A stretch of DNA of 64,000 nt from Gammaproteobacteria bacterium (GTDB lineage: Bacteria > Pseudomonadota > Gammaproteobacteria > JAJDOJ01), in the NCBI GenBank assembly GCA_026984215.1, contig JALSSO010000081.1, positions 16,657-80,656 of the forward strand, written 5' to 3'. This document shows positions 4,373 to 61,968 of this stretch, one piece after another. Below the pieces are notes generated by a model. That model saw only the letters and a program-made list of their open reading frames with translations, was not told where the DNA came from and ran no database searches. The position numbers and the translations under genes were made by a program. Each line of letters begins with the position of its first letter. Positions within the stretch are counted from its first letter, which is position 1.

Positions 4373-4619
4373 AGCCACCTCGAAACCGTCCTCCCGCACC
4401 GGGTGGAGGCGGGTTCGTCGCGAAATCGCTCTAGCGCACCGCGCCCGCCGCTCCGGGCGCCGGCGCGATTCCAGGCCCGCACGCCGGTGCGCGGGGCGGC
4501 CGCAGCGCCCCCATGGGCCCCAGAAGAAAGCGACGAAGAATACCATCCCTTCTACCGCCGTGCAGACGCGCAAGGACCGGCGGATCGATTTCCCACGGCC
4601 ATTCCGGTAAGCTGCCGGC

Positions 4620-18652: not shown

Positions 18653-20290
18653 TCACCCGGCGCAGCAGGACAACTGGCCGACATCCTTGCGGAAGGTCTG
18701 CGCGCAGAGCTTGAGCCCCTCGACCAGGGTCAGGTAGGGAAAGAGCCGTCCGGCCAGCTCGTCCACGGTCATGCCGGCACCGATGGCCAGGGCCGCGCTC
18801 TGGATCACCTCCCCCGCACCGGCTGCCAGCACCTGAGCGCCGAGCAGCCGCCCGTGGCGCGCGTCGGCCACCAGCTTGATGAACCCGCGGGTGTCGAAGT
18901 TGGCCAGGGCCCGGGGAACCTGCCCCAGGTCCAGGATCCGGGCCTCCGCCTCCAGGCCCCGCTGGCGCGCCTGCGTCTCGGTCAGCCCCACGCTGGCCAC
19001 CGCCGGGTCCGTGAACGTCACGGTGGGCAGCACGGAGAGGTCCAGGCGCGCATCGCCGCCCGTGAGATTGACGGCGGCCCGCGTGCCCGCCGCGGCGGCC
19101 ACGTAGACGTATTGGGGCAGCTCGGTGCAGTCGCCGGCGGCGTAGATGTGAGAAACCGAGGTGCGCAGATGGTCATCGACGAGGATCGCACCCTGGACAT
19201 CGGTCTCGACACCGATGCGTTCCAGACCCAGCCCGGCGGTGTTGGGCGTGCGCCCGGTGGCCACCAGCAGCCGGTCGCCTTCGATCACACCGTGCCGGGT
19301 CTCCAGGACAAAACCGCCGACCCCGTGCCTGACGGCGGTGGGTACGGTGTCGCAAAGCACGCGGATCCCCTCGGCCTCGAAGGCGGCGCGCAGCCCCGCC
19401 CCCAGGGCTGGATCCTCTCGCGAGAGCAGGCGGCTGCGCGCGAGGATCGTCACCGCCGCGCCGAGCCGCCGGAAGGCCTGGCCCAGCTCCACGGCCACCA
19501 CCGAGCCGCCCAGAATCACCAAATGCTCCGGGACCGTCTCCGCCGCCAAGGCCTCGGTGGAGGTCCAGAACGGCGTGTCGGCGAGTCCCGGAATCTCAGG
19601 AACGGCCGGCCGCGCGCCGGTGGCGATCAGCACGCCCTCGGCTCGAACCTCGGTCTCGGTCCCGTCCGCGTGGCGCACGAGCAGCCTGTGGGGGGTCGCG
19701 AAACGAGCCCGGCCCCGCAGCAGCCGGATGGTCTCCCGACCCTCCAGGAGGGCCTCGTACTTGACGTGGCGCAGCTCGGCGACCCGCGCCTGCTGCTGGC
19801 GCAGCTGGGCGGCCCGGTCGACGGCGGGCACGCAATGGGCCAACCCTTCGAACGGATGCCGAGCCTGCAGATGGGCGATCTCCGCCAGGCGGATGAGAAT
19901 CTTCGAGGGCACACAACCCACGTTCACGCAGGTCCCGCCCAGCACCGGGGCGGCCTCCACGAGCGTTACCTGCGCGCCACGCGAGGCGGCCTCCAGCGCC
20001 GCCGCGAAGGCCGCCGAGCCACCGCCCACGATGGCGATCCGGGTCGCGGGGCCGCCGGCCATCGACTCGGACCGCGGGCGTTCCTCCAGCAGTCGCGCTC
20101 GGTAGCCGCTCTCCGCCACGGCTCGTACCAGGGCCTCCGGCGACACCCCCTGATCCACCTCCACCCGCGCCGTGGCGCTGGCGAAATCCACATGCGCCCG
20201 CACCCCCGGCACGGCGTTCAGGGCCGCCTCGACGCTGCGCGCGCAGTGCTCGCAGGTCATGCCCGTGATCCGCAGCGACCTGCGGTTCAT
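18653..20290 (-). CDS. merA: Mercuric reductase with an N-terminal HMA (NmerA) domain
   Basis: The start MNRRSLRITGMTCEHC (GMTCxxC heavy-metal-associated motif), the redox-active GTCVNVGCVPSK and the C-terminal vicinal cysteines ...QLSCCAG are all diagnostic of MerA. ATG at 20290 overlaps the merT stop. Confidence 0.9.
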   Translation of the reverse strand: MNRRSLRITGMTCEHCARSVEAALNAVPGVRAHVDFASATARVEVDQGVSPEALVRAVAESGYRARLLEERPRSESMAGGPATRIAIVGGGSAAFAAALEAASRGAQVTLVEAAPVLGGTCVNVGCVPSKILIRLAEIAHLQARHPFEGLAHCVPAVDRAAQLRQQQARVAELRHVKYEALLEGRETIRLLRGRARFATPHRLLVRHADGTETEVRAEGVLIATGARPAVPEIPGLADTPFWTSTEALAAETVPEHLVILGGSVVAVELGQAFRRLGAAVTILARSRLLSREDPALGAGLRAAFEAEGIRVLCDTVPTAVRHGVGGFVLETRHGVIEGDRLLVATGRTPNTAGLGLERIGVETDVQGAILVDDHLRTSVSHIYAAGDCTELPQYVYVAAAAGTRAAVNLTGGDARLDLSVLPTVTFTDPAVASVGLTETQARQRGLEAEARILDLGQVPRALANFDTRGFIKLVADARHGRLLGAQVLAAGAGEVIQSAALAIGAGMTVDELAGRLFPYLTLVEGLKLCAQTFRKDVGQLSCCAG

Positions 20291-20643
20291 GGCAGGAACA
20301 ACGTGCCGTAGTAAGGGAAGGCCACCAGCATCACAGCCACCAGCGCCACGCCCCAGAACACCCGACGCGCCCGGCGCCGGGCCGGCGAGACGGCGCATGC
20401 ACCCTGCGTCCCGCAAACGGCCGGCACCCGGTACAACCGCCAGCCGGCCAGCCCGAGCAGCGCCGCGGTGAGGCCGATGAACACCGGCCGGTACGGCGCC
20501 AGTGCCGTGACCGCGCTCATCCAGGCCCCGCCAAGCCCGAGCGTTGCAAGTACGAACGGCCCGAGGCAGCAGGCCGAGGCGCCCAAGGCGGTGAGCAGGG
20601 CGGCGGCCAGGCCAGGCGCGTTGCCAGGTTCTACATCCGGCAT
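20287..20643 (-). CDS. merT: Mercuric ion transport protein MerT
   Basis: 119 aa from MPDVEPGNAPGLAAALLTALGASACCLGPFVLATLGLGGAW. It has the TM1 CC pair and a second Cys pair (CGTQGAC), matching Tn501/Tn21 MerT topology. Confidence 0.85.
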   Translation of the reverse strand: MPDVEPGNAPGLAAALLTALGASACCLGPFVLATLGLGGAWMSAVTALAPYRPVFIGLTAALLGLAGWRLYRVPAVCGTQGACAVSPARRRARRVFWGVALVAVMLVAFPYYGTLFLP

Positions 20644-20694
20644 GAAGACAGCTCCGCACGCAAGTGCATGATCGAACCACACCGGATTGTGCGG

Positions 20695-20778: not shown

Positions 20779-22074
20779 TCAAAACGACAGGAACAGCCCG
20801 TAGCCCATGGTGAGCACGCCCAGCAGGACCAGACCGAGGAAGGCCGTGCGCTGGACGCGCCAACCACCGATGGTGACCGCGTAGATCGCCTTGAGGAAGT
20901 TGTTGCTGCCGGCGGCGATGAACAGGGCACCGGCCAGGCTGTGCATGCCCGCGGCGCGGTAGTGCCCGTTGAGCAGGGACAGCACGAAGGGGTCGATGTC
21001 CGTGAACCCCACCACGAAGGACAGGGCCTGGAGGCCGGCGTTGCCGAACCGGTGCAGCACCGCGTCGGTGAGCACCAGCATCACGATGAACAGCACTGCG
21101 AACAGGGCGGCGGTACCCAATTCCAGGGGGTTGTGCCCGGCGGCCTCGTCGCGCGTCTCCCGGGACGCCTGCCCCGCGCGGGCGCGTAACACGCCGTAAC
21201 CGATGGCCGCCAGGCCGAACATCGTGAACGGCACCGCCGTGGCGGGAAAGAAGTCGCGGTTCAACAGGAGCACCAGGGCGAGCAGGCGCAGATACATCAT
21301 CCCCGAGGCCGCGATGGTGGCGGCGGCCAGGGGAGCCCGCGCGCCGGGCTCCACGCGGCTGCGCCGGGCCAGCACGATGGTGGTGGCGGTGCTCGAATAC
21401 AGGCCGCCCAACAGACCCGTGACCAAGTAACCCTGCCGGGGAAACAGATAGCGCTGGAGGATGTATCCGAGATAGGAAATGCCCGAGATGGCCACCACCG
21501 CCACCCAGATCTTGTAGGGCGTGGCGGGCAGCCATTCGGCCACCGGCCGGTCGGGCATCAGGGGGAGGATCACCGCGGCCAGCAGGAGGAACTTGGCCAG
21601 GGTGACCAGCTCCCCCGGCGCGATGCGTTCGCTCAACCGATGCGTGAACGGCCGGGCGTTGAGCACGAACACCACCGCCACGAACAGCAACACGAGAAAC
21701 CACGGGGGCAGCAAGGTGGCGCTGGGACCGTAGGTATACACCACCAGAGCGATCAAAGGCTGCAGGATGCCCGTCTGCCCCGCACGGAGCTTCTGGTGAT
21801 AGAACAGCAAATAGAAGAGCACCACCGCGGCCATGCCCCCCAGATACAGCCGCCAGGCGGGGTCCAGGGCGTGGAGGACGAAGCCCAACAGGGCGATGAA
21901 GGTCAAGGTGCGTGCACTGCCGGCCTTGACGTGCGAGCCCTCGGCGTGATCGGCGTTCTTCGACAGCAGGTACTCGCGCATCTCCAGCCCGGTGAGAAAG
22001 CCGAACAGCCCCACCAGGAGGAAGCGCGCCCAGAGCGCGGAGAGCAATGGTGCGAACTGGGCGCCCTCAGCCAT
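20779..22074 (-). CDS. MgtC-N-terminal plus DUF4010-family integral membrane protein
   Basis: 431 aa, about 10 TM segments. Has the MgtC/SapB-like N-terminus followed by the DUF4010 architecture. Confidence 0.65.
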   Translation of the reverse strand: MAEGAQFAPLLSALWARFLLVGLFGFLTGLEMREYLLSKNADHAEGSHVKAGSARTLTFIALLGFVLHALDPAWRLYLGGMAAVVLFYLLFYHQKLRAGQTGILQPLIALVVYTYGPSATLLPPWFLVLLFVAVVFVLNARPFTHRLSERIAPGELVTLAKFLLLAAVILPLMPDRPVAEWLPATPYKIWVAVVAISGISYLGYILQRYLFPRQGYLVTGLLGGLYSSTATTIVLARRSRVEPGARAPLAAATIAASGMMYLRLLALVLLLNRDFFPATAVPFTMFGLAAIGYGVLRARAGQASRETRDEAAGHNPLELGTAALFAVLFIVMLVLTDAVLHRFGNAGLQALSFVVGFTDIDPFVLSLLNGHYRAAGMHSLAGALFIAAGSNNFLKAIYAVTIGGWRVQRTAFLGLVLLGVLTMGYGLFLSF

Positions 22075-22207: not shown

Positions 22208-22984
22208 TCACGGCCGCCCGCCTGCCCAGCCATCGCATCCGAAGAGACGACGCCGTCCCGCGCCGGCCAGGGCCAGCACCGCAAGCGCCCACACGATCGC
22301 CGGGCCGGAGGGCAGATCGAGGGCCGCGGACACCGCTAGACCCACCGCATAGCCCAGCGCCCCGATCAGGTACCCGCGGACCAGCGCCGTCGGCGGATCC
22401 AGCCCCCGCACCGCCAGTGCGGGTAGGATCAGGGTCGCGAATACGAGGTACACGCCCACGAGCTGGACCGAGGCGGTCACCGCCACGGCGAATACGAGAT
22501 AGAAGACCACCCCTGCCGGGCGCAGCGCGTGGACGAGGAGCAGCCCTGCGTACAGTACCGCCACCACGGCCAACTGGCGCCAACCCACCCACAGGATCTG
22601 TCCCGCCAGCAGGGCCTTGATCTGCTCCCCGCCATGGGGGTGATCGGCCACCGCGAGCAGGCTGGCGGTGACGGTGAGCACGAAGGCCACGCCGATGAGC
22701 GCCTCTTGGATCTGTGGCCAGCACCGCTCGAGTCCGTGGAGGATGGCGGCGCCGATCAACGCACTGGCCCCGGCGGCGAGCTGCACCTGCCAGTCCCCGC
22801 CGTGGAACCCCAATGCCTCGGCGGCGATGACGCCGAGACCGGCCATCTGGGCCGCGGCCAGGTCTCTGAAAATGATCCCGCGGGCGAGCACCTGGCGTCC
22901 CAGCGGTAGGTGCGTGGACAGCACCAGTAGTCCCGCCGCGAAGGCCGGGAGCAACACCCCCAGATCGAAGGCACCCCAGTTCAC
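22208..22984 (-). CDS. ABC-3 family metal (Zn/Mn/Fe) transporter permease (ZnuB/MntB-like)
   Basis: Membrane protein with the ABC-3 signature (...ALIGAAILHGLER...). GTG start at 22984 (VNWGAFDLGVLLP), overlapping the upstream SBP remnant. No cognate ATPase gene anywhere nearby. Confidence 0.7.
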   Translation of the reverse strand: MNWGAFDLGVLLPAFAAGLLVLSTHLPLGRQVLARGIIFRDLAAAQMAGLGVIAAEALGFHGGDWQVQLAAGASALIGAAILHGLERCWPQIQEALIGVAFVLTVTASLLAVADHPHGGEQIKALLAGQILWVGWRQLAVVAVLYAGLLLVHALRPAGVVFYLVFAVAVTASVQLVGVYLVFATLILPALAVRGLDPPTALVRGYLIGALGYAVGLAVSAALDLPSGPAIVWALAVLALAGAGRRRLFGCDGWAGGRP

Positions 22985-23698
22985 TGCAGGGCCTGGTGGA
23001 GCCGGGCCAGCGTCACATCGAACAATCCATAAAGGTCGTCCGCGCCCGGGGCCCCGCCCACGGTGAAGGGCAACACGGCCACGGGGATGCCGGTCTGCTC
23101 CGAGAGCCACTGTGCCGGCCGCAGGTCCATGTAGGCGGCCCGGAGGATCACGCGGGCGGGCTCGCGCGCCAGGCGCTGTTTCAATGCAGCCAGATGGCCG
23201 GGCGTGGGTGGGATTCCCGGCTTGGGCTCGAGCTCACCCACGCGCTTCAGGCCCAACCAGTCCTCGAGATACACCCACTGATCGTGGTGGACCACGATCG
23301 GCAGGCCACGCAGATCGGCCCCCTGGCGGCTCCAGCGCCCGGCGCCAGTCGGCCTCGAACCGTTTCCAGCGGGCCGCGTAGTCCTCGGCGTGTCCTGGAT
23401 CCAGTCGGCCAAGCCGCCGCGCCAACGCCTCGGCGATCTTCAACAGCCGTCGCGGATCGAGATGCACATGGGGATTGCCCTGTGGATGGATGTCTCCTTC
23501 GGCGCGGCTCAGACGCTTCGGGATCTCGAGCAGACGCACCTGCCGGGCCGCCAGGAAATGGCCCGGCGCGCCCGGCTGAACGGGGAAGACGCCGCGCAAC
23601 GACTGCGGCCCGATGAACGTGCTTTGTGGTATATCAACCCAAAAGGCGAGGCGGCGGCCGGCTTGCACGGCGCCAAACGGAGGGGAAGATGCCGACAA
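22981..23698 (-). pseudogene. Remnant of a TroA/ZnuA-family periplasmic metal-binding protein: 5'-truncated, with a +1 frameshift in a C5 homopolymer (23319-23323)
   Basis: Two overlapping frames (ORFs 23234..23698 and 22981..23412) together give GNPHVHLDP...YAARWKRFEADWRRALEPPG|ADLRGLPIVVHHDQWVYLEDWLGL...IPVAVLPFTVGG, which is a ZnuA-like sequence. Removing one C restores the frame. The N-terminal roughly 100 aa and the signal peptide are absent; the region is occupied by ppk2 on the other strand. Confidence 0.55.
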
Positions 23699-24540
23699 CC
23701 GATTATCGGACGCGCTTCAGGATCGCGCCGGGCACGCGGGTGCGGTTGCGGGACCACGACCCGGGTTACAAGGACCGGCACCGATCCAAGAAAGAGGCCG
23801 CCCCCGAGATCGAACGCTACGCCCGGCGCCTGCGCGAGCTCCAGTACCTGCTCTACGCCGAGGGGCGGCGCAGTCTGCTGATCGTCCTGCAGGCCCTGGA
23901 TGCGGGCGGCAAGGACGGCACCATCCGCCACGTGCTCGGCTACATGAATCCCCAGGGCTGCCGCGTGCACGCCTTCAAGGTCCCCACCCCCGAGGAGGCC
24001 GCCCACGATTTCCTGTGGCGCGTGCACCAGGCGGCTCCACGTATCGGGGAGGCGGCCATCTTCAACCGCTCCCACTACGAGGACGTGCTCGTGACCCGCG
24101 TGCACGGCTTGGTGTCCAAGTCCGAGTGCAAGGCCCGCTACGCGCACATCAACGCCTTCGAGCGGTTGCTGGCCGACCGCGCTACGGTGATCCTGAAGTT
24201 CTTCCTGCACATCAGCGCCGAAGAACAACTGCGCCGTTTCCGCAAGCGACTCGACGATCCCAAACGCTGGTGGAAACTCAGCGAGGCCGACTTCGAGGAA
24301 CGTCGGTACTGGGACGCCTATCAGGAAGCCTACGAAGACGCCCTGTCCCGGTGCAGTACCGAACACGCCCCCTGGTTCGTCATCCCGGCCGACCACAAGT
24401 GGTTCCGCAACTTGGCCGTTTCCCGGATCGTGGTCGAAACCCTGGAGGCACTGGACATGTCCTTTCCGCCCCCCAAGGTGGACATCGAGGCCCTGCGGGC
24501 ACGCTGGCGGGAACTCGCCGGAAAGGAACGGGAATCCTGA
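23689..24540 (+). CDS. ppk2: Polyphosphate kinase 2 family (polyphosphate:nucleotide phosphotransferase)
   Basis: 284 aa. LLIVLQALDAGGKDGTIRHV (Walker A-like), ...FNRSHYEDVLV..., ...KFFLHISAEEQLRRFRKR... are PPK2 motifs. Good RBS ggaggggaag before the ATG at 23689. Confidence 0.85.
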   Translation: MPTTDYRTRFRIAPGTRVRLRDHDPGYKDRHRSKKEAAPEIERYARRLRELQYLLYAEGRRSLLIVLQALDAGGKDGTIRHVLGYMNPQGCRVHAFKVPTPEEAAHDFLWRVHQAAPRIGEAAIFNRSHYEDVLVTRVHGLVSKSECKARYAHINAFERLLADRATVILKFFLHISAEEQLRRFRKRLDDPKRWWKLSEADFEERRYWDAYQEAYEDALSRCSTEHAPWFVIPADHKWFRNLAVSRIVVETLEALDMSFPPPKVDIEALRARWRELAGKERES

Positions 24541-24648
24541 CCGCGGCCGACGCCGCGGTCGCCGACCCTTGCGCACGATCAATCCCCCTTTTCGCCCGGG
24601 CAATTAGCGTATAGGACCCGTTCGGTCCGACGAGAGGAGGGTTCCACC

Positions 24649-25698
24649 ATGGCCGACATCCAAGCACTGCTCGGCGACGAGGCCGAGGATTTGCTCACGC
24701 ACGTCTGCACCACCATCCCCAAGGAACGCCTGCATCCACCGGGGCCGGACTACGTGGACCACGTGGTGGCACCCAAGGACCGCAACCCGCGGGTGTTGCG
24801 CAACCTGCAGGCGCTGTTCGACCACGGCCGCCTCGCCGGCACCGGATATCTCTCCATCCTGCCGGTGGACCAAGGCGTGGAGCACTCGGCTGGCGCCTCT
24901 TTCGCGCCCAATCCGGACTATTTCGATCCGGAGAACATCGTGCGCCTGGCCATCGAGGGTGGCTGCAACGCCGTGGCCTCCACGCTGGGCGTGCTGGGCT
25001 CGGTGGCCCGCAAGTATGCGCACCGGATCCCATTCATCCTCAAGATCAACCACAACGAGCTGCTCACCTACCCCAACCATTACGATCAGACGCTGTTCGC
25101 CAGCGTGGAACAGGCCTTCGACATGGGCGCGGTGGCCGTCGGCGCCACCGTCTACTACGGCTCGCCCGAATGCCGGCGCCAGATCCAGGAGGTCAGCGAG
25201 GCATTCCAGCACGCCCACGAACTCGGCATGGCCACGGTCCTGTGGGCCTATCTGCGCAACAGCGCCTTCAAGAAGGACGGCGTCGACTACCACACCGCCG
25301 CCGATCTCACGGGACAGGCCAACCACTTGGCGGCCACCATCGACGCCGACATCGTCAAGCAGAAACAGGCTCAGACCAACGGCGGTTACACCGCCATCGG
25401 GTTCGGACGCACCCACCCCTGGGTCTACGAGCGGCTGACCTCGAACCACCCCATCGACCTGGTGCGTTACCAAGTGGCCAATTGCTACATGGGTCGCGTG
25501 GGGATGATCAACTCCGGCGGCGCTTCCGGCAGGGACGATCTGGCCCAGGCCGTGCGCACGGCGGTGATCAACAAACGCGCCGGAGGGATGGGACTGATCT
25601 CGGGCCGCAAGGCCTTCCAGAAACCCATGGCCGAGGGCATCGAGTTGCTGCACCACATCCAGGACGTCTATCTCTCCCCGGACGTGACCCTCGCCTGA
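24649..25698 (+). CDS. fbaB: Class I fructose-bisphosphate aldolase (FbaB type)
   Basis: Near-colinear with E. coli FbaB ([25 protein letters not shown]...[12 protein letters not shown]...[17 protein letters not shown]). Confidence 0.9.
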
Positions 25699-25728
25699 GC
25701 CGAGCGCCACGCGACGGAGCGAGCACGA

Positions 25729-26955
25729 GTGCTCAATGCCCTGGAGGTGATGGGCATCGCCATCGTGGCCGGGCTGGCCGCGGGCAGGCTTGCCGAGCGC
25801 ATCTCGGTCCCCTCGGTGGCCGGCTACGTAGTGGTCGGCGTACTCCTGGGCGAGTCCGTATTCGGCGTGTTCAATGCGACAGTGCTCGATCGGATGGGCA
25901 TCGTGGGCGACCTGGCCCTGGGGATCATCGCCTTCTCCATCGGCGGAGAGTTGGAATGGCGGGTGGTCCGCCGACTCGCCCGTTCGCTGTTCCCCATCGT
26001 GCTGCTGGAGGCCTTTGGCGCCATGGTGGCGGTTACGGGCGCGGTCTGGTGGCTGACCGCGGACCCGCCGCTCGCCCTGGTGCTGGGAGCGATCTCGGCG
26101 GCCACCGCGCCGGCGGCCACGATCATGGTGGTTCGTGAGCTGCGAGCCTCCGGGGTACTGACCCGCACCCTCATGGCCGTGGTCGGCATCGACGACGCCA
26201 TCGCGCTGGTGCTCTACGGAGTCGGCTCGGCGATGGCCAAGGCCATGCTGACGGGCGGGGCCGAAGTCTCCTGGACCGCGGTGGGCGCGGCCGCGGGCTG
26301 GGAGATCGGTGGCGCGCTGGCCCTGGGTGCGGCCGCCGGTCTGGCGGTGGGACCGCTGCTGTCGCGTCTCGACTCGCGCGAGCACGTGTTGTCGCTGGCC
26401 GTCGGCGCCCTGGTGGGCATCGCCGGCGTGGCCGAGTGGCTGGACTTCTCGCCCCTGCTGGCGAACATGACCTTCGGTGTACTGCTCATCAACATCGCCC
26501 CCATCTCCACCCGAGCGCTGGTGGAGGACGTATCGCTGCTGGGTGCGCCGATCCTCATCGGGTTCTTCGTGCTGGCCGGGGCGCACCTGCGGGTCGACCT
26601 CCTGCCCGCCCTGGGCCTGCTCGGATTGGTCTATCTGCTGGCCCGCATGGCGGGCAAGGTCTCCGGTGCCTGGTTGGGCGCCGTGCTTTCCGGCGCCGAC
26701 CCCCAGGTCCGCCGCAACATCGGACTCGGCCTGCTTTCGCAGGTGGGCATCGCCATCGGCCTGTCGCTGGTGGTGGCCAACGAGTTCTCCGCCTACGGAG
26801 AGGCGGGAAGACGGCTGGCCGTCACGGTGATCAACGTACTGCTGGCCACCACGGTGGTGACCGAGGTGGTCGGCCCCTGGCTCACCCGACAAGCCCTGAT
26901 CCGGGCCGGAGAAGCCGGACGCATGGACGAGGAACCCAGGAGAACGGTCCCATGA
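25729..26955 (+). CDS. Cation:proton antiporter (Na+/H+ exchanger family, PF00999-like)
   Basis: 408 aa, 11-12 TM segments. N-terminal ...GRLAERISVPSVAGYVVVGVLLGESVFGV... is typical of CPA antiporters. Confidence 0.8.
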   Translation: MLNALEVMGIAIVAGLAAGRLAERISVPSVAGYVVVGVLLGESVFGVFNATVLDRMGIVGDLALGIIAFSIGGELEWRVVRRLARSLFPIVLLEAFGAMVAVTGAVWWLTADPPLALVLGAISAATAPAATIMVVRELRASGVLTRTLMAVVGIDDAIALVLYGVGSAMAKAMLTGGAEVSWTAVGAAAGWEIGGALALGAAAGLAVGPLLSRLDSREHVLSLAVGALVGIAGVAEWLDFSPLLANMTFGVLLINIAPISTRALVEDVSLLGAPILIGFFVLAGAHLRVDLLPALGLLGLVYLLARMAGKVSGAWLGAVLSGADPQVRRNIGLGLLSQVGIAIGLSLVVANEFSAYGEAGRRLAVTVINVLLATTVVTEVVGPWLTRQALIRAGEAGRMDEEPRRTVP

Positions 26956-27296
26956 AACGCCTGCTCATGGTCAACCTGCACGAAATCGAATTTCTGGAGG
27001 AGACGCTCCGGATCCTGGCCCGGGCGCATGTGACCGATTGTGTGGTCCAGGAGGCCGAGTCGGTGGTCAGCCATCACACCGGCGACACCCTTGAGCCCAG
27101 CGTCATGGCCTCCATCGCCGGCCTGTTCAAGCAGGAACGCAACATCAATTACCTGATCCATGCGATCCTCGACGAGGACTGCTGCGCCTGGGTGGCCGAG
27201 CGGCTGCGCGCACTCTACAAGGAAGACCGCTACGCCTGTTCTTTCTGGTTCGTCCCCATCGAGCAGTACTGGTATCACAAAAACCCCGCCGAATGA
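26952..27296 (+). CDS. Small (114 aa) soluble protein translationally coupled to the antiporter. Its predicted beta-alpha-beta-beta-alpha-beta arrangement is compatible with a PII-like (ferredoxin-like) fold
   Basis: The ATG at 26952 overlaps the antiporter TGA (ATGA). MKRLLMVNLHEIEFLEETLRILARAHVTDCVVQEAESVV...INYLIHAIL..DEDCCAWVAERLRALYK...CSFWFVPIE. Fold assignment is an inference from the sequence pattern only. Confidence 0.5.
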   Translation: MKRLLMVNLHEIEFLEETLRILARAHVTDCVVQEAESVVSHHTGDTLEPSVMASIAGLFKQERNINYLIHAILDEDCCAWVAERLRALYKEDRYACSFWFVPIEQYWYHKNPAE

Positions 27297-27433
27297 CCCC
27301 TCGCGGGCGGGTGTGGAGCGCTGGAAAAAGCGCCGCTGCACGCATCGGCAACTCGGAAGGCATGCACCATGACTCCACTCGACTTGACCGATGAACAGGC
27401 CGGCCCCTGCGCAAGGCGCTCGCCATCCACCCT

Positions 27434-30082
27434 GTGGAGCCGCATCGGGAGGTGGCCGACACCGAGCATGAGGCATTTCGTGAAGCACTCAAGGCGCAAG
27501 CGCAGTCCCTCAAAGAGATCCTGGCGCAGCTGCCCGGAGGGGAGAGAGCCCGACGCCCGGGCGGGGCACGACGCATGACCGGGACCTGCATCGAGCTGCC
27601 GCAGGAGCTGGCGCACCTGCGCACACTGGCCCTGGACCTTCGCTGGTCCTGGAGTCACGTGGCCGATGCGCTCTGGGAACACATCGACCCGGTCCTGTGG
27701 CGGCGCACCCGCAACCCCTGGCTCATCCTGCAAACCGTGGGCGCGGCGCGGCTGCGCGAGCTGGCGGCCGAGCCCCGATTCCGCGCGCTGCTCGAGGAGC
27801 TGGAGCGCGAACGCCAGGCCGCCCACGGCTCACCGGCCTGGTTCGCGCGCACCCACCCCGATGGCCGCCTGCGCTGTGTGGCCTACTTCAGTATGGAGTA
27901 TGGGCTCACCGAAGGCCTGCCGGTCTATTCCGGCGGTCTCGGGGTGCTCGCCGCCGATCATCTGAAGACCGCGAGCGAGCTGGGCGTGCCCCTGGTGGCG
28001 GTGGGGCTGTTGTACCAACAGGGCTATTTCCGGCAAGGTCTGGACCCATCGGGCGCCCAACTCGCCTTCTTTCCTTTCAACGACCCCACCCAACTGCCGG
28101 TGCAGCCGTTGCGTGACGCCGGCGGCGAGTGGCTGCACGTGGCCATCCCCCTGCCCGGCCGCGCCCTGTGGCTGCGCGCCTGGGAAGTGCAGGTGGGCCG
28201 GGTGCGGCTCTGCCTGCTGGACAGTAACAGCCCGCTCAACAGCCCGCCCGACCGAGGCATCACCAGCGAGCTCTACGGCGGCGGACCCGGGCTGCGCCTG
28301 CAGCAGGAGATGGTCCTGGGCATCGGCGGATACCGGCTGCTGGAGACACTGGGTCACACGCCCGACGTGTGCCACCTGAACGAAGGCCACAGCGCGTTCG
28401 CGGTGCTCGAACGCGCACGATACTTCATGCAGGCGAACGACGTACCCTTCGCCGTGGCGCTCAACGCCACCCGCGCGGGCAACCTGTTCACCACGCACAC
28501 GCCCGTCGAGGCGGGCTTCGACCGGTTTACCCCCGAGCTGTTCGCGCACACCATGGGCCCTTACGCGGCCGAGCTCGGCCTGCCCATGGAGGCACTCCTG
28601 GCGCTGGGCCGAGCCCGCCCGGAAGACGCCGCCGAGCCTTTCCAAATGGCCTGGCTGGCCCTGCATGGGGCCGGCGCGGTGAACGGCGTCAGCCGGCTGC
28701 ACGGGGCGGTGAGCCGTGGTCTGTTCCAGCCCTTGTTTCCACGCTGGCCCACCCCCGAGGTCCCGGTGGGGCACGTGACCAATGGGGTCCACGTGCCCAG
28801 CTGGGACTCCCCGGCCGCCGACCGTCTGTGGACCCAGGCCTGCGGCAAGGCCCGCTGGCGCGAGGCCTCCGGCGCCATGGAGACGGCCATCCGCGCCCTG
28901 GACGACCGTACGCTCTGGGAGCTGCGCAGTGAAAACCGGCGCCGGCTCGTCGAGTGGGCACGCAGGCGTCTGGCCCGGCAGAGCCGCCAGTGGGGTCCCC
29001 CCATCGCCTCGCCCGAGACCGCCCTGGACCCCGATGTCCTGACCTTGGGCTTCGCCCGCCGCTTCGCCACCTACAAGCGGCCCAACCTGCTCCTGCACGA
29101 TCCGGACCGGCTCGAGCGGCTGCTCCGCGACCCACGTCGGCCGGTGCAGCTCCTCGTCGCCGGCAAGGCGCACCCCCTGGACCGGCCCGGACAGGCCTTG
29201 ATCCAGACCTGGAACCGCTTCATTCGCGACCGCGGGCTGCACCACCGGGTGGTATTCCTGGTGGACTATGATCTCGACATGGCCGAGCACTTGACCGCAG
29301 GGGCGGATCTCTGGATCAACACACCGCGTCGCCCCTGGGAGGCCTGCGGCACCAGCGGCATGAAGCCCCTGGTCAACGGCGGACTCAACCTCTCGGAGCT
29401 CGACGGCTGGTGGGCCGAGGCCTGGCGGCCCGGGGTGGGCTGGGCGCTCGGCGACGGCGGCGAGCACGGCGACGATCCGGACTGGGACGCCCACGAAGCC
29501 GGCCGGCTCTACGACCTGCTGGAGCAGGAGGTGATCCCGGCCTTCTACGAGCGGGACGCGCATGGCATCCCCACGCGCTGGGTGACCATGATGCGCGAGA
29601 GCATGGCGACGCTCACGCCTCGCTTCTCCACCAACCGCATGCTCCGGGAATACGTGGAAACCCACTACCTGACCCTGGCCGAGGCCCACCGGGCCCGCGC
29701 GCGCGATCATGCGGCCCTCGCCCGTGACATCACGCGCTGGCGGAACACCATCGAGAGGCACTGGGACCTTCTGCGGTTCGGCGCGGTGCGCGCCACACGG
29801 CACGGCGAACGACTGGTGTTCGATGTCGAGGCGTATCTGGACGACCTGCCCCTCGAGGCGGTCCGTATGGAGATCTACGCCGACCCACCGGAGCCGGGCG
29901 GCGCCCCGGAAATCCATGCCGCCGAGCACATGGAGCAGCTGGCGGGCGCCGTCAACGGGCACCGGTTCCGTTGCGCGTTCGCGACCACCCGCCCGCCGGA
30001 GCACTATACCCCACGGCTCGTGCCCTACCATCCGCAGGTCAGCCTGCCCCTGGAATGCCCCCGCATCCTATGGCAGCGCTAG
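27434..30082 (+). CDS. glgP: Alpha-glucan (glycogen/maltodextrin) phosphorylase, GT35 bacterial alpha-glucan-phosphorylase subtype
   Basis: 882-aa ORF. ...VAYFSMEYGL...GGLGVLAADHLK...TTHTPV...ARRFATYKRPNLLL...GTSGMKPLVNGGLNLSELDGWW are GT35 motifs, including the pyridoxal-phosphate Lys region. The start may be the downstream Met near 27575. Confidence 0.85.
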   Translation: MEPHREVADTEHEAFREALKAQAQSLKEILAQLPGGERARRPGGARRMTGTCIELPQELAHLRTLALDLRWSWSHVADALWEHIDPVLWRRTRNPWLILQTVGAARLRELAAEPRFRALLEELERERQAAHGSPAWFARTHPDGRLRCVAYFSMEYGLTEGLPVYSGGLGVLAADHLKTASELGVPLVAVGLLYQQGYFRQGLDPSGAQLAFFPFNDPTQLPVQPLRDAGGEWLHVAIPLPGRALWLRAWEVQVGRVRLCLLDSNSPLNSPPDRGITSELYGGGPGLRLQQEMVLGIGGYRLLETLGHTPDVCHLNEGHSAFAVLERARYFMQANDVPFAVALNATRAGNLFTTHTPVEAGFDRFTPELFAHTMGPYAAELGLPMEALLALGRARPEDAAEPFQMAWLALHGAGAVNGVSRLHGAVSRGLFQPLFPRWPTPEVPVGHVTNGVHVPSWDSPAADRLWTQACGKARWREASGAMETAIRALDDRTLWELRSENRRRLVEWARRRLARQSRQWGPPIASPETALDPDVLTLGFARRFATYKRPNLLLHDPDRLERLLRDPRRPVQLLVAGKAHPLDRPGQALIQTWNRFIRDRGLHHRVVFLVDYDLDMAEHLTAGADLWINTPRRPWEACGTSGMKPLVNGGLNLSELDGWWAEAWRPGVGWALGDGGEHGDDPDWDAHEAGRLYDLLEQEVIPAFYERDAHGIPTRWVTMMRESMATLTPRFSTNRMLREYVETHYLTLAEAHRARARDHAALARDITRWRNTIERHWDLLRFGAVRATRHGERLVFDVEAYLDDLPLEAVRMEIYADPPEPGGAPEIHAAEHMEQLAGAVNGHRFRCAFATTRPPEHYTPRLVPYHPQVSLPLECPRILWQR

Positions 30083-30223
30083 CCCGAATGCCGCACCAGG
30101 TCGCCGTCTGCGGGGCCGGCTGCGCGACGAGCCGCTACGTGGCCTTGCAAGCGATTCGGGGAAGTACACGTTATACCTGCGACCACCTGCCAGACACAGC
30201 CCACCCACGAGGAGGAGGCCACG

Positions 30224-32602
30224 ATGAATCCGACCGAACCGTCCCCCGCCCTGTCGGAGGAGACCCTGCGGCGCATCGACGCCTGGTGGCGCGCCGCCAA
30301 CTACCTTTCGGTGGGGCAGATCTTCCTGATGGACAACCCCCTGCTCGAGGAGCCGTTGCGCCCGGAACACATCAAGCCCCGCCGCCTCGGGCACTGGGGA
30401 ACCTGCCCCGGCCTCAACCTTCTCTACGCCCACATGAACCGGGCCATCCGCCAGTGGGACCTGAATGCCATCTACATCACCGGTCCCGGCCACGGCGGCC
30501 CGGCCCTGGTGGCCAATACCTGGCTGGAGGGCACCTATTCGGAGCTGTACCCCGAGGTTTCCCTCGATCGCGAGGGAATGCGTAGGCTGTTCCGGCAGTT
30601 CTCCTTCCCGGGCGGGGTACCGAGTCATTGCGCCCCGGAAACACCGGGATCCATCCACGAGGGCGGAGAGCTGGGCTACTCGCTGGCGCACGCCTTCGGC
30701 GCGGTGTTCGACAATCCCGACCTGCTCGCCCTGTGCGTGGTCGGCGATGGGGAGGCGGAGACCGGTCCCCTGGCCACCGCCTGGCACGCCAACAAGTTCC
30801 TCAATCCGGCGCGCGACGGGGCCGTGCTCCCGGTACTGCATCTGAACGGCTACAAGATCGCCAACCCCACCGTGCTGGCACGTATCGCGGACGAGGACCT
30901 GATCCGACTGTTCGAGGGTTACGGCTACCGTCCCCATCTGGTGGCCGGGAACGCCCCCATGGACGTCCACCGGCGGCTGGCCGCCACGCTGGACACCGTC
31001 ATCGGCGAGATCCGCACCATCCAGGAACAAGCCCGCCGCGGGGGCGAGGCGACCCTCCCCCGCTGGCCCATGATCGTACTGCGCACCCCCAAGGGCTGGA
31101 CCGGTCCCAAGGAAGTGGACGGCAAACGGGTCGAGGACTTTTGGCGCAGCCACCAGGTGCCCATCCCGGAGGCCACCACCCCCGCCCATCTGCGGCTACT
31201 CGAGGATTGGATGAAGCGCTACCGGCCGGAGGAACTGTTCGATGAACGGGGGCGCCCCCATGCGGAGATCACGGCGCTCGCCCCGGCGGGCGGGCGGCGC
31301 ATGGGGGCCAACCCGCATGCCAATGGCGGCCTCCTGCTCAAGCCCCTACGTCTGCCCGACTTCGGCAGGTACGCCCTGGAAGTGAAGCAGCCGGGCGCAG
31401 TCCTGGGCGAGGCCACGCGACGGCTGGGTGAATACCTGCGCGACGTGATGCGCCTGAACGCAGACCGTGCGAACTTCCGCGTCATGGGCCCCGACGAGAC
31501 GGATTCCAACCGGCTCAGCGCACTGTTCGAGGCCACCGACCGAGCCTGGATGGCGAAATGCTACGACTACGACGAGCATCTGGCCCCGGACGGGCGGGTG
31601 ATGGAGATCCTCTCCGAGCACACCTGCCAGGGTTGGCTGGAGGGCTATCTGCTCACGGGACGGCACGGCTTGTTCTCCTGCTACGAGGCCTTCATCCACA
31701 TCGTGGACTCCATGTTCAACCAGCACGCCAAGTGGCTGAAGGTGTGCCGCGAGATCCCCTGGCGCGCGCCCATCGCCTCGCTCAACATCCTGCTCACCTC
31801 GCACGTCTGGCGCCAGGACCACAACGGTTTCTCACACCAGGACCCGGGCTTCATCGATCACGTGGTGAACAAGAAGGCCGACATCGTGCGCGTGTATCTG
31901 CCGCCGGACGCCAACTGCCTGCTCTGCGTGGCCGACCAGTGTCTACGCTCGCGTAACCTGGTGAACGTGATCGTGGCCGGCAAGCAACCCGAGCCGCAGT
32001 GGCTGGACCTGGAGGCGGCCATCGCTCATTGCGCCGAGGGCATCGGCATCTGGGAATGGGCCAGCAACGACCAGGACCGCAAGCCCGACCTGATCATGGC
32101 CTGCTGCGGTGACGTGCCCACCATCGAGACCCTGGCGGCCGTGGATCTGCTACGCGGCCTGGCGCCCGAGCTGAAGATCCGCGTCATCAACGTGGTGGAC
32201 CTCATGACCCTGCAGCCGCACGAGGAGCATCCCCACGGCAAGACCGACAAGGCGTTCGACGCCCTGTTCGGCACGGACATCCCGGTGATCTTCGCCTTCC
32301 ACGGCTATCCCTGGCTCATCCACCGCCTCATGTACCGGCGGCACTGCCATCGGCATCTGCACGTGCGCGGCTACAAGGAGGAAGGCACGACCACCACCCC
32401 CTTCGACATGGTGGTGCGCAACGACCTGGACCGCTTCCACCTGGTCATGGACGCCGCCGACCGCGTGCCGGCGCTGGCCGAGCGCGCCGGACACATCCAT
32501 CAGGCCATGCGCGAGAAGCTGGTCGAACACCGCATCTACATCACCGAGCACGGCCAGGACATGCCCGAGATCCGCGGCTGGCGCTGGCCGCAGGGGACAT
32601 GA
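30224..32602 (+). CDS. xfp: Xylulose-5-phosphate/fructose-6-phosphate phosphoketolase
   Basis: 792 aa. The N-terminal ...[18 protein letters not shown]...[10 protein letters not shown]..., the ThDP-binding ...GPGHGGPA... and ...EGGELGYSL... are XFP hallmarks. Confidence 0.9.
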
Positions 32603-41813: not shown

Positions 41814-43361
41814 TCAGGAGACGATACGCGGCTTGAGCAACAGGGACTTGGCGGTCATCTGGGGCGGCTGGGGGATGCCCATGAGCTGCAGGATGGTCGG
41901 GGCTATATTGCTGATCCCCCCGCCGGTCAGCAGCTGCCAGGGCTGCTCGTCGATGACCAGACACGGCACCGGATACAGCGTATGCTGGGTGTGGGGCTCG
42001 CCGGTGACCGGATCGACCATCTCGTCGCAATTGCCGTGGTCGGCGGTGAGCAGCACCGAGACGCCGTTGTCCACCGCCGCGTCCAGCACCCGCCCCACGG
42101 CCTCGTCGAGCGCCTCCACCGCGCGGATGATGGCCTCGCGCTTGGCGGTGTGCCCCACCATGTCGCCGTTGGCGAAATTGACCACGATCCAGGCGTACTC
42201 CGGGTTCTCCAGGGCATGGACCACGTGGTCGGCCACCTCATAGGCGCTCATCTCGGGTTTCTGATCGTAGGTGGCCACCCGGGGCGAGGGGACCATGACC
42301 CGGTCCTCGCCGTCATAAGGCTGCTCCCGCCCCCCGTTGATGAAAAACGTGACGTGCGCGTACTTCTCCGTCTCGGCGCAGTGGAACTGACGAAGCCCCG
42401 CCTCGGATATGATCTTGCCGAGCGTGGTGCGGGGCACCTCGGGACGGAACGCGATCGAGCACGGGTAGTGAGCGTCGTACTCGGTCATGGTGACCACGCT
42501 CACGGGCAGGAAGTCGCCCCGTTCGAAGTGATCGAAATCCCGCGTGGCCAAGGCCTTGACCAGCTGGCGCGGCCGGTCGTTGCGGAAATTGAAGAACACC
42601 ACCACGTCCTCGGGACTCATGGGCAAACAAGGGGGCAGTACGGTGGGCGGGATGAACTCGTCGCCCAAACCCCGCTCGTAGGCCGCGTCGATGGCCTCGG
42701 TGGCGTTCCTGGCCTGCTCGCCCTCGCAACGGACGATGGCCCGCCAGGCCTTTTCGGTACGGTCCCAGCGCTTGTCACGGTCCATGGCGTAATACCGTCC
42801 CATGACCGTGGCGATCGCCCCGTCCGCCTCGTACAAGGCCTCTTCCAGAAACGGCAGGTAGTCCTTGGCCATGCGCGGCGGGGTGTCGCGCCCGTCGGTG
42901 ATCATGTGCACCAGGGGCTTGACGCCGTGCCGTTTGCACAGGTCGATCAGGGCCAGCAGATGCCGGATGTGCGAATGGACCCCCCCGTCCGAGACCAGAC
43001 CGATCAGGTGGACCGGCCGCTTGGTGTCCTGCGCCTTGCGCATGGCGAACAGGAAGGCGGGATTGTCGTAGAAACTGCCGTCCTCGATGGCCTCGTCGAT
43101 CCGCACCAGATCCTGCCGGATGATGCTCCCGCAGCCGATGGTGATGTGCCCGACCTCGGAGTTGCCCATCTGCCCAGGCGGCAATCCCACCGCACGCCCC
43201 GAGGCCTCCAGGGTGGTATGCGGATGGGTCGAGAAATAATGATCCAGGCGCGGGGTGTCGGCCAGCACGACGGCGTTGTTGGCCTTGCTCGGATTGCAGC
43301 CGAACCCATCCAGGATGACCAGCAAGGCACGGCGACGGATCTGAATCGGTTCTTCAGGCAT
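41814..43361 (-). CDS. gpmI: 2,3-bisphosphoglycerate-independent phosphoglycerate mutase
   Basis: 515 aa. ...LVILDGFG...NSEVGHITIGCG...TDGRDTPP...ADHGNCDEM... are iPGM motifs. Confidence 0.9.
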   Translation of the reverse strand: MPEEPIQIRRRALLVILDGFGCNPSKANNAVVLADTPRLDHYFSTHPHTTLEASGRAVGLPPGQMGNSEVGHITIGCGSIIRQDLVRIDEAIEDGSFYDNPAFLFAMRKAQDTKRPVHLIGLVSDGGVHSHIRHLLALIDLCKRHGVKPLVHMITDGRDTPPRMAKDYLPFLEEALYEADGAIATVMGRYYAMDRDKRWDRTEKAWRAIVRCEGEQARNATEAIDAAYERGLGDEFIPPTVLPPCLPMSPEDVVVFFNFRNDRPRQLVKALATRDFDHFERGDFLPVSVVTMTEYDAHYPCSIAFRPEVPRTTLGKIISEAGLRQFHCAETEKYAHVTFFINGGREQPYDGEDRVMVPSPRVATYDQKPEMSAYEVADHVVHALENPEYAWIVVNFANGDMVGHTAKREAIIRAVEALDEAVGRVLDAAVDNGVSVLLTADHGNCDEMVDPVTGEPHTQHTLYPVPCLVIDEQPWQLLTGGGISNIAPTILQLMGIPQPPQMTAKSLLLKPRIVS

Positions 43362-61961: not shown

Positions 61962-61968
61962 GGATCCG

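What the first reader, a model, noticed from the sequence alone, without database searches (positions are those of the whole stretch)
25729..27296. CPA-family antiporter translationally coupled to a small soluble protein whose predicted topology fits a PII-like fold
The 114-aa downstream ORF overlaps the antiporter stop (ATGA), which implies stoichiometric co-expression. Its predicted beta-alpha-beta-beta-alpha-beta arrangement with a long loop between beta2 and beta3 (SHHTGDTLEPSVMASIAGLFKQERN) resembles PII/SbtB-type signalling proteins, which gate transporters such as SbtA and AmtB in response to adenylates or cAMP. A PII-like regulator dedicated to a Na+/H+ exchanger-family antiporter is, as far as I know, not a described pairing. 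The pair sits among carbon-storage genes (fbaB, glgP, xfp), which suggests energy- or carbon-status gating of ion or bicarbonate transport.
Basis: inference. Interest (0 to 1): 0.5.

Follow-up and report, generated by a model that had tools for sequence, protein, structure and literature searches.

The report
PII-like partner of CPA2 antiporter
A cation/proton antiporter gene overlaps a small gene for a PII-type signalling protein, and this uncharacterised pairing recurs across many bacterial phyla, so it probably marks an unstudied way of switching such antiporters on and off.

Summary
A 408-aa CPA2-type antiporter (25729-26955) and a 114-aa ORF (26952-27296) overlap by ATGA, with an AGGAG site 9 nt upstream.

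The small protein matches no Pfam, NCBIfam or PDB sequence. Its AlphaFold model (pLDDT 85.6) has the predicted beta-alpha-beta-[26-residue loop]-beta-alpha-beta fold. The 50 best Foldseek PDB hits listed are all PII, GlnK, SbtB or PotN.

Sequence links it to Pfam P-II through relatives. It belongs to a wider PII-like family (183 clusters or more). That family lies immediately beside ~400-aa, KTN-less CPA2 antiporters in more than ten named bacterial lineages. Three layouts occur: one downstream gene, two tandem paralogs (Clostridia), or a PtsN-like EIIA fusion upstream (Planctomycetota).

All 18 loci of the window's subgroup keep the pairing. About 54 of 68 loci of the antiporter clade have an adjacent PII-like gene.

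The carbon-gene context is not conserved. The canonical PII nucleotide-binding loop is absent, so adenylate or cAMP sensing is unsupported. Nothing suggests bicarbonate transport.

The most likely function is a ligand-responsive regulatory subunit that gates the antiporter through its T-loop. That step is inferred, not shown. I found no description of this pairing in the papers I could search.

The parts
25729..26955 (+). CPA2-type cation/proton antiporter, 408 aa. It is membrane-only, with no KTN/RCK domain.
   Evidence: Pfam PF00999 E = 8.8e-27. The family profile's best PDB hit is T. thermophilus NapA, E = 3.6e-11. AlphaFold2 pLDDT is 88.6, with TM-score 0.75-0.82 to MjNhaP1, NapA and PaNhaP.
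26191..26196 (+). Codons for D155-D156, the CPA2 'DD' ion-binding motif of the antiporter.
   Evidence: Invariant in 30 family members. It aligns with the IDD motif of NapA.
26938..26942 (+). Shine-Dalgarno-like AGGAG inside the antiporter's 3' end, 9 nt before the small ORF's ATG.
   Evidence: Read directly from the sequence. Purine-rich GGAG/GGGG stretches occupy the same position in relatives.
26952..26955 (+). ATGA overlap: the start codon of the small ORF overlaps the stop codon of the antiporter.
   Evidence: It is conserved in 7 of 8 gammaproteobacterial loci and in most metagenome loci.
26952..27296 (+). PII-like small soluble protein, 114 aa, the proposed regulatory subunit of the antiporter.
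   Evidence: AlphaFold2 pLDDT 85.6 with beta-alpha-beta-beta-alpha-beta topology. The top 50 Foldseek PDB hits are all PII/GlnK/SbtB/PotN. Relatives link it to Pfam P-II.
27063..27140 (+). T-loop equivalent (residues 38-63), carrying the conserved E48-P49 ... A56-G57-L58-F59-K60 motif.
   Evidence: In the model this is a long, lower-confidence beta2-beta3 loop. The motif aligns with 'EVPIFAGLR' of the wider family and with 'KMPLFASFW' of the EIIA fusions.
27216..27242 (+). B-loop equivalent (residues 89-97, YKEDRYACS). It is highly conserved but lacks the Gly-rich nucleotide-binding motif of canonical PII.
   Evidence: Conservation is. In the profile-profile alignment, Y94-A95-C96-S97 fall on GlnB G87-D88-G89-K90.

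Best explanation
The two genes form one conserved module. The first encodes a KTN-less CPA2 cation/proton antiporter. The second, translationally coupled to it, encodes a cytoplasmic PII-like protein.

The small protein is a divergent gammaproteobacterial member of an uncharacterised PII-superfamily branch whose members are almost always encoded next to this antiporter clade.

The most likely mechanism follows GlnK-AmtB and SbtB-SbtA. The PII-like protein would bind the cytoplasmic face of the antiporter through its long, conserved beta2-beta3 T-loop. It would switch transport off or on according to a small ligand bound in the cleft formed by the beta2 start, the T-loop base, the B-loop and the C-terminus.

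Shown here: the fold, the homology chain to PII, the conserved pairing and coupling, the intact catalytic motifs of the antiporter, and the conserved T-loop motif. Inferred: physical binding, gating through the T-loop, ligand dependence, and which ion is transported.

K+ or Na+ against H+ is the likeliest transport activity. The ligand is unknown, and in this subgroup it is probably not bound the way canonical PII binds ATP or ADP.
For: Fold:
- The AlphaFold2 model has pLDDT 85.6 and a ferredoxin-like core with a 26-residue beta2-beta3 loop.
- The 50 best Foldseek PDB matches are all PII/GlnK/GlnB/SbtB/PotN. E-values run from 3e-5 to 4e-4 over roughly 100-109 alignment columns.

Homology chain:
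- L006's 110-aa protein is 49% identical to the window family (hhalign E = 1e-42) and gives a weak P-II hit.
- L010's 133-aa protein matches the window family at 91% probability and Pfam P-II at E = 7.5e-5.
- L010's 129-aa neighbour passes the P-II gathering score, 26.7 against 25 bits.
- 16 of 56 antiporter-adjacent small proteins hit PF00543.
- 36 of them form one phmmer-connected cluster with the window protein.
- The profile of that cluster retrieves canonical PII as 12 of its 13 best PDB hits, in register.

Pairing:
- 18 of 18 loci of the subgroup have the antiporter directly upstream.
- The ATGA junction is conserved.
- Of about 68 loci with a short antiporter of this clade, about 38 have a stand-alone PII-like gene downstream, 1 has one upstream, and 15 have an EIIA + PII-like fusion upstream.
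- 4 of 4 members retrieved through the PII-like profile alone also sit directly after a Na_H_Exchanger gene.
- Pairwise identities of the two proteins correlate across 29 loci, r = 0.85.

Antiporter:
- NapA is the closest solved relative. D155-D156 are invariant and K310 is conserved. The fold is CPA.

Precedent:
- CPA1, CPA2 and SbtA share one elevator fold (PMC9477730).
- PII-family proteins gate AmtB and SbtA by direct binding (PMC10710835).
Against: - The window protein itself gives no Pfam, NCBIfam or PDB sequence hit. Its own profile does not align with canonical PII. Membership therefore rests on fold plus transitive homology.
- The canonical nucleotide-binding B-loop is missing.
- All solved relatives of the antiporter are dimers (established knowledge, not a tool result), whereas PII proteins are trimers. 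A review notes that PII control has so far seemed limited to transporters that can work as trimers (PMC10710835).
- About 15 loci of the antiporter clade have no adjacent PII-like gene.
- No interaction or transport data exist.
Confidence: 0.6

Rival explanations
1. The small protein is an obligatory structural or assembly subunit of the antiporter, or a chaperone for it. It would make a 'two-component' CPA2 transporter of the KhtT-KhtU or AmhM-AmhT kind, needed for activity or stability but not sensing any signal.
For: Translational coupling implies roughly matched synthesis. The pairing is conserved. The canonical PII nucleotide-binding loop is lost in this subgroup. Two-component CPA2 systems are known (established knowledge).
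Against: The most conserved residues sit at the positions of the PII ligand cleft and in the T-loop, which is what a sensor looks like. In other phyla the same domain is fused to a PtsN-like EIIA signalling domain. About 15 antiporters of the clade lack an adjacent partner.
Confidence: 0.15
2. The PII-like protein mainly regulates other targets, for example carbon or energy enzymes. The antiporter would be only a co-expressed neighbour or a membrane anchor, in the way GlnK bound to AmtB sequesters DraG.
For: In this window the pair lies in a same-strand run: ppk2, fbaB, antiporter, PII-like gene, glgP, xfp. PII proteins typically have several targets (PMC10710835). SbtB also controls glycogen metabolism (PMC8654305, abstract).
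Against: The carbon-gene context is not conserved. Only L011 shares fbaB, and no locus shares glgP, xfp or ppk2. Flanks differ in L001, L002 and L005. The only constant neighbour across phyla is the antiporter.
Confidence: 0.1
3. The small protein is not a PII relative. It would be another ferredoxin-like ligand-binding domain, such as RCK_C/TrkA_C, ACT or a CutA-like metal binder, that resembles PII by convergence. One version has the conserved His and Cys residues sensing a metal or redox state.
Against: Foldseek's listed top 50 are exclusively PII-type proteins and include the T-loop region. Transitive profile links lead to PF00543, not to TrkA_C or ACT. No TrkA_C, TrkA_N, ACT or CutA Pfam hit appeared for the window protein even at E up to 1. 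C96 is Ser in several members.
Confidence: 0.08
4. The 114-codon ORF is a chance open reading frame in GC-rich DNA and encodes nothing.
For: High-GC DNA produces many long spurious ORFs. Dozens are listed around this locus.
Against: There are 39 conserved homolog clusters with 22 invariant columns. The codon-position GC pattern is 0.62/0.35/0.83. Position and junction are conserved across loci. The structure prediction is confident.
Confidence: 0.01

Closest known systems
SbtB-SbtA (cyanobacterial PII-like regulator of the Na+/HCO3- symporter)
   Different: The partner here is a PF00999 CPA2 cation/proton antiporter with a DD motif, not SbtA. CPA relatives are dimers, whereas SbtA is a trimer. 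There is no C-terminal CGPxGC redox loop; the protein ends ...YWYHKNPAE. The Gly-rich nucleotide-binding B-loop is absent. There is no detectable sequence similarity to SbtB.
GlnK-AmtB (canonical PII gating the ammonium channel)
   Same: The PII gene and the transporter gene sit in one operon. The core fold and T-loop architecture match, and GlnK structures are among the best Foldseek hits. The proposed mechanism, plugging the cytoplasmic face with the T-loop, is modelled on it.
   Different: The window protein has no PF00543 hit. It lacks the T-loop uridylylation/adenylylation site Tyr51 of GlnK/GlnB, and no equivalent Tyr occurs in its loop. No ATP/ADP/2-oxoglutarate-binding residues are retained. 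The partner is an antiporter rather than an Amt channel.
Two-component and KTN/RCK-regulated CPA2 systems (KhtT-KhtU, AmhM-AmhT, KefC with KefF, CpaA)
   Same: A CPA2 membrane protein of about 400 aa works with a separately encoded or fused small cytoplasmic ligand-binding module. The likely physiological role, K+/Na+-H+ homeostasis, is similar. KefC is among the antiporter's structural matches.
   Different: The soluble module here is PII-like, not RCK/KTN (TrkA_N, TrkA_C) or flavodoxin-like. None of those Pfam families is matched, and the fold hits are PII. c-di-AMP, the known ligand of KhtT and CpaA, is not expected in most Gammaproteobacteria (established knowledge, not tested).
Other PII-like families tied to transporters (PotN with PotABCD; CPII with DAB/carboxysome loci; DUF3240 and PII-NG with heavy-metal efflux genes)
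   Same: These are small PII-like proteins encoded beside a transport system, with modified ligand specificity. PotN (7o4x), CPII (5d4l) and DUF3240 (3ce8) all appear among the structural matches.
   Different: This is a different sequence family. It matches neither Pfam DUF3240 nor P-II at threshold, and no NCBIfam model covers it. It also has a different transporter partner.

Membership tests
PII superfamily (PII-like fold) | Ferredoxin-like beta-alpha-beta-beta-alpha-beta core of about 110 residues | tested here: met
PII superfamily (PII-like fold) | Long flexible T-loop between beta2 and beta3 | tested here: met
   Residues 38-63 form a 26-residue loop with lower pLDDT of 60-68. The loop carries a motif conserved across the wider family.
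PII superfamily (PII-like fold) | Detectable sequence or profile relationship to Pfam P-II (PF00543) | tested here: inconclusive
   The window protein has no hit. Relatives do link to it: L006 E = 0.01; L010 23.5 and 26.7 bits against a cut-off of 25; 16 of 56 neighbours hit P-II. The chain back to the window family is by hhalign at 91% and 100% probability. The broad profile against canonical PII gives only 28% probability, although in register.
PII superfamily (PII-like fold) | Homotrimer with ligand clefts between subunits | not testable with these tools
   Only monomer prediction was available. It needs AlphaFold-Multimer, SEC-MALS or a structure.
Canonical PII (GlnB/GlnK) | Gly-rich B-loop (TGxxGDGKIF) and basic residues R38, K58, K90, R101, R103 that bind ATP/ADP | tested here: not met
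   In the in-register alignment, Y94-A95-C96-S97 replace G87-D88-G89-K90 and Y108 replaces R101. The wider family keeps a GxG at this place, but the window's subgroup does not.
Canonical PII (GlnB/GlnK) | Passes the Pfam PF00543 gathering score and is linked to nitrogen genes (amtB, glnA) | tested here: not met
   There is no PF00543 hit. The neighbours are an antiporter, fbaB and glgP. The window holds no canonical glnB or glnK.
SbtB | Encoded with SbtA, and carries the C-terminal CGPxGC redox loop | tested here: not met
   The partner is PF00999, not SbtA. The C-terminus is ...EQYWYHKNPAE, with no CGPxGC.
CPA2 monovalent cation:proton antiporters (TC 2.A.37) | Na_H_Exchanger domain with the 13-TM CPA elevator fold | tested here: met
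   PF00999 E = 8.8e-27. TIGR00932 CPA2 gives a weak hit. The model has pLDDT 88.6, with TM-score 0.75-0.82 to NapA, MjNhaP1 and PaNhaP; KefC is also hit.
CPA2 monovalent cation:proton antiporters (TC 2.A.37) | Asp-Asp ion-binding motif and partner Lys (NapA D156-D157 and K305) | tested here: met
   D155-D156 are invariant and K310 is at least 90% conserved in 30 sequences. They align with the IDD and GK motifs of NapA.
KTN/RCK-regulated CPA2 systems (KefC, KhtTU, AmhMT) | Fused or separately encoded TrkA_N/TrkA_C (RCK) regulatory domain | tested here: not met
   The antiporter ends about 25 residues after its last helix. Neither protein gives a TrkA_N or TrkA_C hit. The small protein's fold hits are PII, not RCK.

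The most novel reading that the evidence does not exclude
A previously uncharacterised PII-like family is the standard regulatory subunit of KTN-less CPA2 antiporters in more than ten named bacterial lineages. It comes in interchangeable forms: a single gene, two tandem paralogs, or a fusion to a PtsN-like EIIA domain. That would couple cation/proton exchange to metabolic or PTS-Ntr signalling. The gammaproteobacterial branch in this window would have rebuilt the ligand cleft with His, Cys, Tyr and Trp in place of the Gly-rich loop, and would sense a ligand that is new for PII proteins. A trimer-type regulator acting on a dimeric elevator transporter would also be a new structural solution.
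Probability: 0.4. Interest if true: 0.7.

Novelty: new variant of a known kind. Interest (0 to 1): 0.55.

Why it matters
PII and PII-like proteins are among the most widespread signal integrators in bacteria. Their known transporter targets are AmtB, SbtA, nitrate, urea and polyamine ABC systems.

CPA2 antiporters control cytoplasmic pH, K+ and Na+. Their known regulators are KTN/RCK domains, glutathione adducts and c-di-AMP. How the many membrane-only CPA2 proteins that lack such domains are regulated is largely unknown.

This module would give a concrete and testable answer for one large clade. It would extend the PII principle to a new transporter class with a different oligomeric state.

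The EIIA fusions and the TrkH/TrkA neighbourhood suggest a link to the PTS-Ntr/K+ network. The pair is short (408 + 114 aa) and easy to express, so binding, ligand screening and transport assays are straightforward.

Tried and rejected
- **L085 fusion.** An apparent natural antiporter-PII-like fusion in L085 would have been Rosetta-stone evidence. It was an artefact of my ORF-extension script. L085 has a normal TAG stop and a separate gene 18 nt downstream, like L062.
- **Antiporter C-terminal tail.** I tested the conserved '...TKxAxxKAGEaG' tail as a possible docking site. It is present whether or not a partner gene is adjacent, so it is not diagnostic.
- **Special divergence of the window's subgroup.** Rejected. 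At matched antiporter divergence (36-46% identity), PII-like identity is 23.0% between the subgroup and the others, against 24.7% among the others.
- **Direct sequence searches with the window protein or its family profile.** Pfam, NCBIfam and PDB gave nothing useful. A profile search of 1.84 billion representatives found only 11.
- **hhalign of the family profile against canonical PII.** No significant match.
- **AFDB50 fold search.** That library was not available.
- **Promoter and terminator scan.** Uninformative in this GC-rich DNA. There were no promoter-like sites and only weak terminator-like hairpins.
- **RNase P neighbours.** 17 of the small ORFs downstream of antiporters turned out to be RNase P protein, behind a different, long antiporter type in Planctomycetota. 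I excluded them.
- **Literature.** Eight searches found no description of the pairing. Borrelia BB0017 ('GlnB-like domain') is an unrelated membrane protein. The reviews by Selim & Alva 2024 and Forchhammer et al. 2022 could not be read.
Full report
**1. The observation**

The window holds an ORF at 25729-26955 (+, GTG start, 408 aa) that matches Pfam Na_H_Exchanger (E = 8.8e-27). A 114-codon ORF follows at 26952-27296. Its ATG overlaps the antiporter's TGA as ATGA. An AGGAG lies 9 nt upstream of that ATG (26938-26942).

The small ORF is a real gene, for three reasons:
- GC at codon positions 1/2/3 is 0.62/0.35/0.83 in its own frame.
- A search of 5.8 billion proteins found 39 homolog clusters of 108-124 aa at 52-87% identity, with 22 invariant columns.
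- Its position relative to the antiporter is conserved (section 4).

**2. What the small protein is**

It matches nothing directly. Pfam and NCBIfam give no hit. Neither does any PDB sequence, whether searched with the single protein or with the family profile. A profile search of 1.84 billion representatives found only 11 proteins, so at the sequence level this is a small, isolated family.

With the 40-sequence alignment, AlphaFold2 gives a confident model (pLDDT 85.6, pTM 0.75). The elements are beta1 2-9, alpha1 12-24, beta2 29-37, a 26-residue lower-confidence loop 38-63, beta3 64-74, alpha2 75-87 and beta4 96-102.

**3. The sequence bridge to PII**

I looked at what follows more distant relatives of the antiporter.
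- In L006 (antiporter 52% identical) the next gene encodes a 110-aa protein. It is 49% identical to the window family (hhalign E = 1e-42) and on its own gives a weak Pfam P-II hit (E = 0.01).
- In L010 (44%) two small genes follow the antiporter. The 133-aa product matches the window family at 91% probability and Pfam P-II at E = 7.5e-5. The 129-aa product passes the P-II gathering score, 26.7 against 25 bits.
- Of 56 small ORFs found directly after antiporters of this clade, 16 hit PF00543, with a best E-value of 4.4e-7.
- 36 of the 56 form a single phmmer-connected cluster that includes the window protein (alignment A3).
- The A3 profile retrieves canonical PII/GlnK as 12 of its 13 best PDB hits. 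All are in register, though each is marginal (E = 0.02-0.09).
- hhalign of A3 against canonical GlnB/GlnK is also in register but weak (28% probability, E = 6e-4).

Fold and transitive homology together make PII-superfamily membership well supported. Direct membership in Pfam P-II is not met.

**4. The pairing**

*The window's own subgroup.* Every one of the 18 distinct loci examined has a ~408-aa Na_H_Exchanger gene immediately upstream on the same strand. The loci are from Gammaproteobacteria, Chromatiaceae and Methylomonas, plus L006 and two low-GC relatives. Most have the ATGA junction. One (L014) has an 8-nt overlap. The low-GC members have a short gap with a GGAGG site.

*The wider antiporter clade.* An antiporter-based scan of one genome per species returned 80 loci from more than ten named bacterial lineages. 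Those with a short (~400 aa) antiporter, together with the loci fetched by protein look-up, make about 68 loci. They break down as follows:

| Arrangement | Loci |
|---|---|
| Stand-alone PII-like gene directly downstream | about 38 |
| Stand-alone PII-like gene directly upstream | 1 |
| 270-aa PtsN-like EIIA + PII-like fusion directly upstream | 15 |
| No adjacent PII-like gene | about 15 |

The fusion protein has a PtsN-like PTS_EIIA_2 domain (E = 1e-28; TIGR01419 E = 1e-25) followed by a C-terminal PII-like domain. As a group those C-terminal domains match A3 at 95.9% probability (E = 6e-9).

*The reverse direction.* Four family members retrieved through the PII-like profile alone all sit directly after a Na_H_Exchanger gene. 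In Clostridia two PII-like paralogs follow the antiporter. In L095 the module lies in the cluster TrkH, TrkA, a 270-aa protein, EIIA, antiporter, PII-like.

*Co-inheritance.* Pairwise identities of antiporter and partner correlate across 29 loci (r = 0.85), as expected for a unit inherited together.

*Annotation status.* The broad family has at least 183 clusters. A few Clostridia members are labelled 'P-II family nitrogen regulator' by NCBI or UniRef, and most are 'hypothetical'. No NCBIfam model covers any branch.

**5. The antiporter**

Its family profile is closest to Thermus NapA, a CPA2 member (E = 3.6e-11). D155-D156 are invariant and align with NapA's Asp-Asp site. K310 aligns with NapA K305.

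The AlphaFold2 model (pLDDT 88.6) superposes on MjNhaP1, NapA, PaNhaP, SOS1, NHA2 and KefC, with TM-scores of 0.75-0.82 for the first three. There is no KTN/RCK domain. The protein ends about 25 residues after its last helix. It is therefore a catalytically intact, membrane-only CPA2-type cation/proton exchanger. Ion selectivity cannot be read from the sequence.

**6. How it most likely works**

CPA1, CPA2 and SbtA share the same crossover elevator fold (PMC9477730). GlnK and SbtB inhibit AmtB and SbtA by inserting their T-loops into the cytoplasmic face (PMC10710835).

The wider family has a strongly conserved T-loop motif, 'EVPIFAGLR'. The window's subgroup keeps its core, E48-P49 ... A56-G57-L58-F59-K60. 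The EIIA fusions have 'KMPLFASFW'. A conserved loop on a fast-evolving small protein is what one expects of a docking element.

I therefore propose ligand-dependent T-loop docking that locks or releases the antiporter. This step is inference.

The ligand is open. In the in-register alignment, the subgroup's invariant residues fall on the positions of the canonical nucleotide cleft but with different chemistry:

| Window subgroup | Canonical GlnB |
|---|---|
| D29-C30 | G27-M28 |
| R93-Y94-A95-C96-S97 | I86-G87-D88-G89-K90 |
| Y108 | R101 |

The wider family retains a GxG at the B-loop position.

**7. What is not supported**

*The carbon-storage context.* The description is true of this window: ppk2, fbaB, antiporter, PII-like gene, glgP and xfp lie on one strand, with 30 nt between fbaB and the antiporter. 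It is not conserved, though. Only L011 (86% identical antiporter) shares fbaB, and no locus shares glgP, xfp or ppk2. Elsewhere the flanks are cytochrome oxidase, ribosomal proteins, ftsK and others.

*Bicarbonate transport.* Nothing points to it.

**8. Open problems**

- All solved relatives of the antiporter are dimers (established knowledge, not a tool result), whereas PII proteins are trimers.
- About 15 antiporter loci lack an adjacent partner.
- The oligomeric state and the ligand of the small protein are unknown.

**9. Novelty**

Eight full-text searches found no paper describing a PII-like partner of a CPA antiporter. The one survey most likely to list such families, Selim & Alva 2024, could not be read.

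PII-like control of a co-encoded transporter is a known principle. New here are the target class, the sequence family, the EIIA-fused form and the altered cleft. I rate it a new variant of a known kind, of moderate to good interest (0.55).

Noticed in passing
window 22981-23698 (-): znuA appears split by a frameshift. Two overlapping ORFs in different frames each match part of the Pfam ZnuA profile: 22981-23412 matches positions 153-261 and 23234-23698 matches positions 90-141. They lie next to an ABC-3 permease at 22208-23110. This is either a pseudogene or a sequencing error.
   Followed up: partly
L058:3109-3921, and the equivalent genes in L050, L054, L056, L059, L060, L061, L064, L066, L071, L072, L075, L081, L082, L083: 270-aa proteins made of a PtsN-like PTS EIIA domain plus a C-terminal PII-like domain, encoded directly upstream of the short antiporter. 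Most are in Planctomycetota. I know of no description of this domain fusion.
   Followed up: partly
L095:1-4363: Gene cluster TrkH, TrkA, a 270-aa protein with weak PAS hits, a 150-aa stand-alone EIIA, the antiporter, and a 120-aa PII-like gene. It places the module in a K+ homeostasis neighbourhood.
   Followed up: partly
L010:5213-6006; L009:5971-6765; L091:4001-4784; L092:4001-4814; L093:4001-4810: In Clostridia the antiporter is followed by two different PII-like paralogs, 133-148 aa and 116-129 aa. L009 has two tandem antiporters and then the two paralogs. This hints at hetero-oligomers.
   Followed up: partly
L010:1-606: A second pair of small proteins with weak Pfam P-II hits (147 aa, cut by the locus end, and 115 aa) lies upstream of an adhE-like gene and not next to an antiporter.
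   Followed up: no
e.g. L032:2496-7480, L041:4001-9128, L087:2433-7393: Pirellulales and Phycisphaerae carry tandem arrays of two or three long (~550-590 aa) antiporters with a conserved C-terminal extension ('LPVV..GVLD..RR.SAEVL.RQ.KAD'). In 17 loci an rnpA (RNase P protein) gene follows the last one. No PII-like gene follows them.
   Followed up: no
window 23626-32602 (+): Same-strand run of ppk2, a class I FbaB-type aldolase, the antiporter, the PII-like gene, a GlgP-like alpha-glucan phosphorylase (DUF3417 + Phosphorylase) and phosphoketolase. Further glycolytic genes lie elsewhere in the window: iPGM at 41814-43361, pyruvate kinase at 60483-62219 and PDH E1 at 1697-4882.
   Followed up: partly
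window 18653-20680 (-) and 20779-22074 (-): A MerA-like pyridine-nucleotide disulphide oxidoreductase with an N-terminal heavy-metal-associated (HMA) domain sits next to a DUF4010 membrane protein. A P-type cation ATPase lies at 35521-38022 (-).
   Followed up: no
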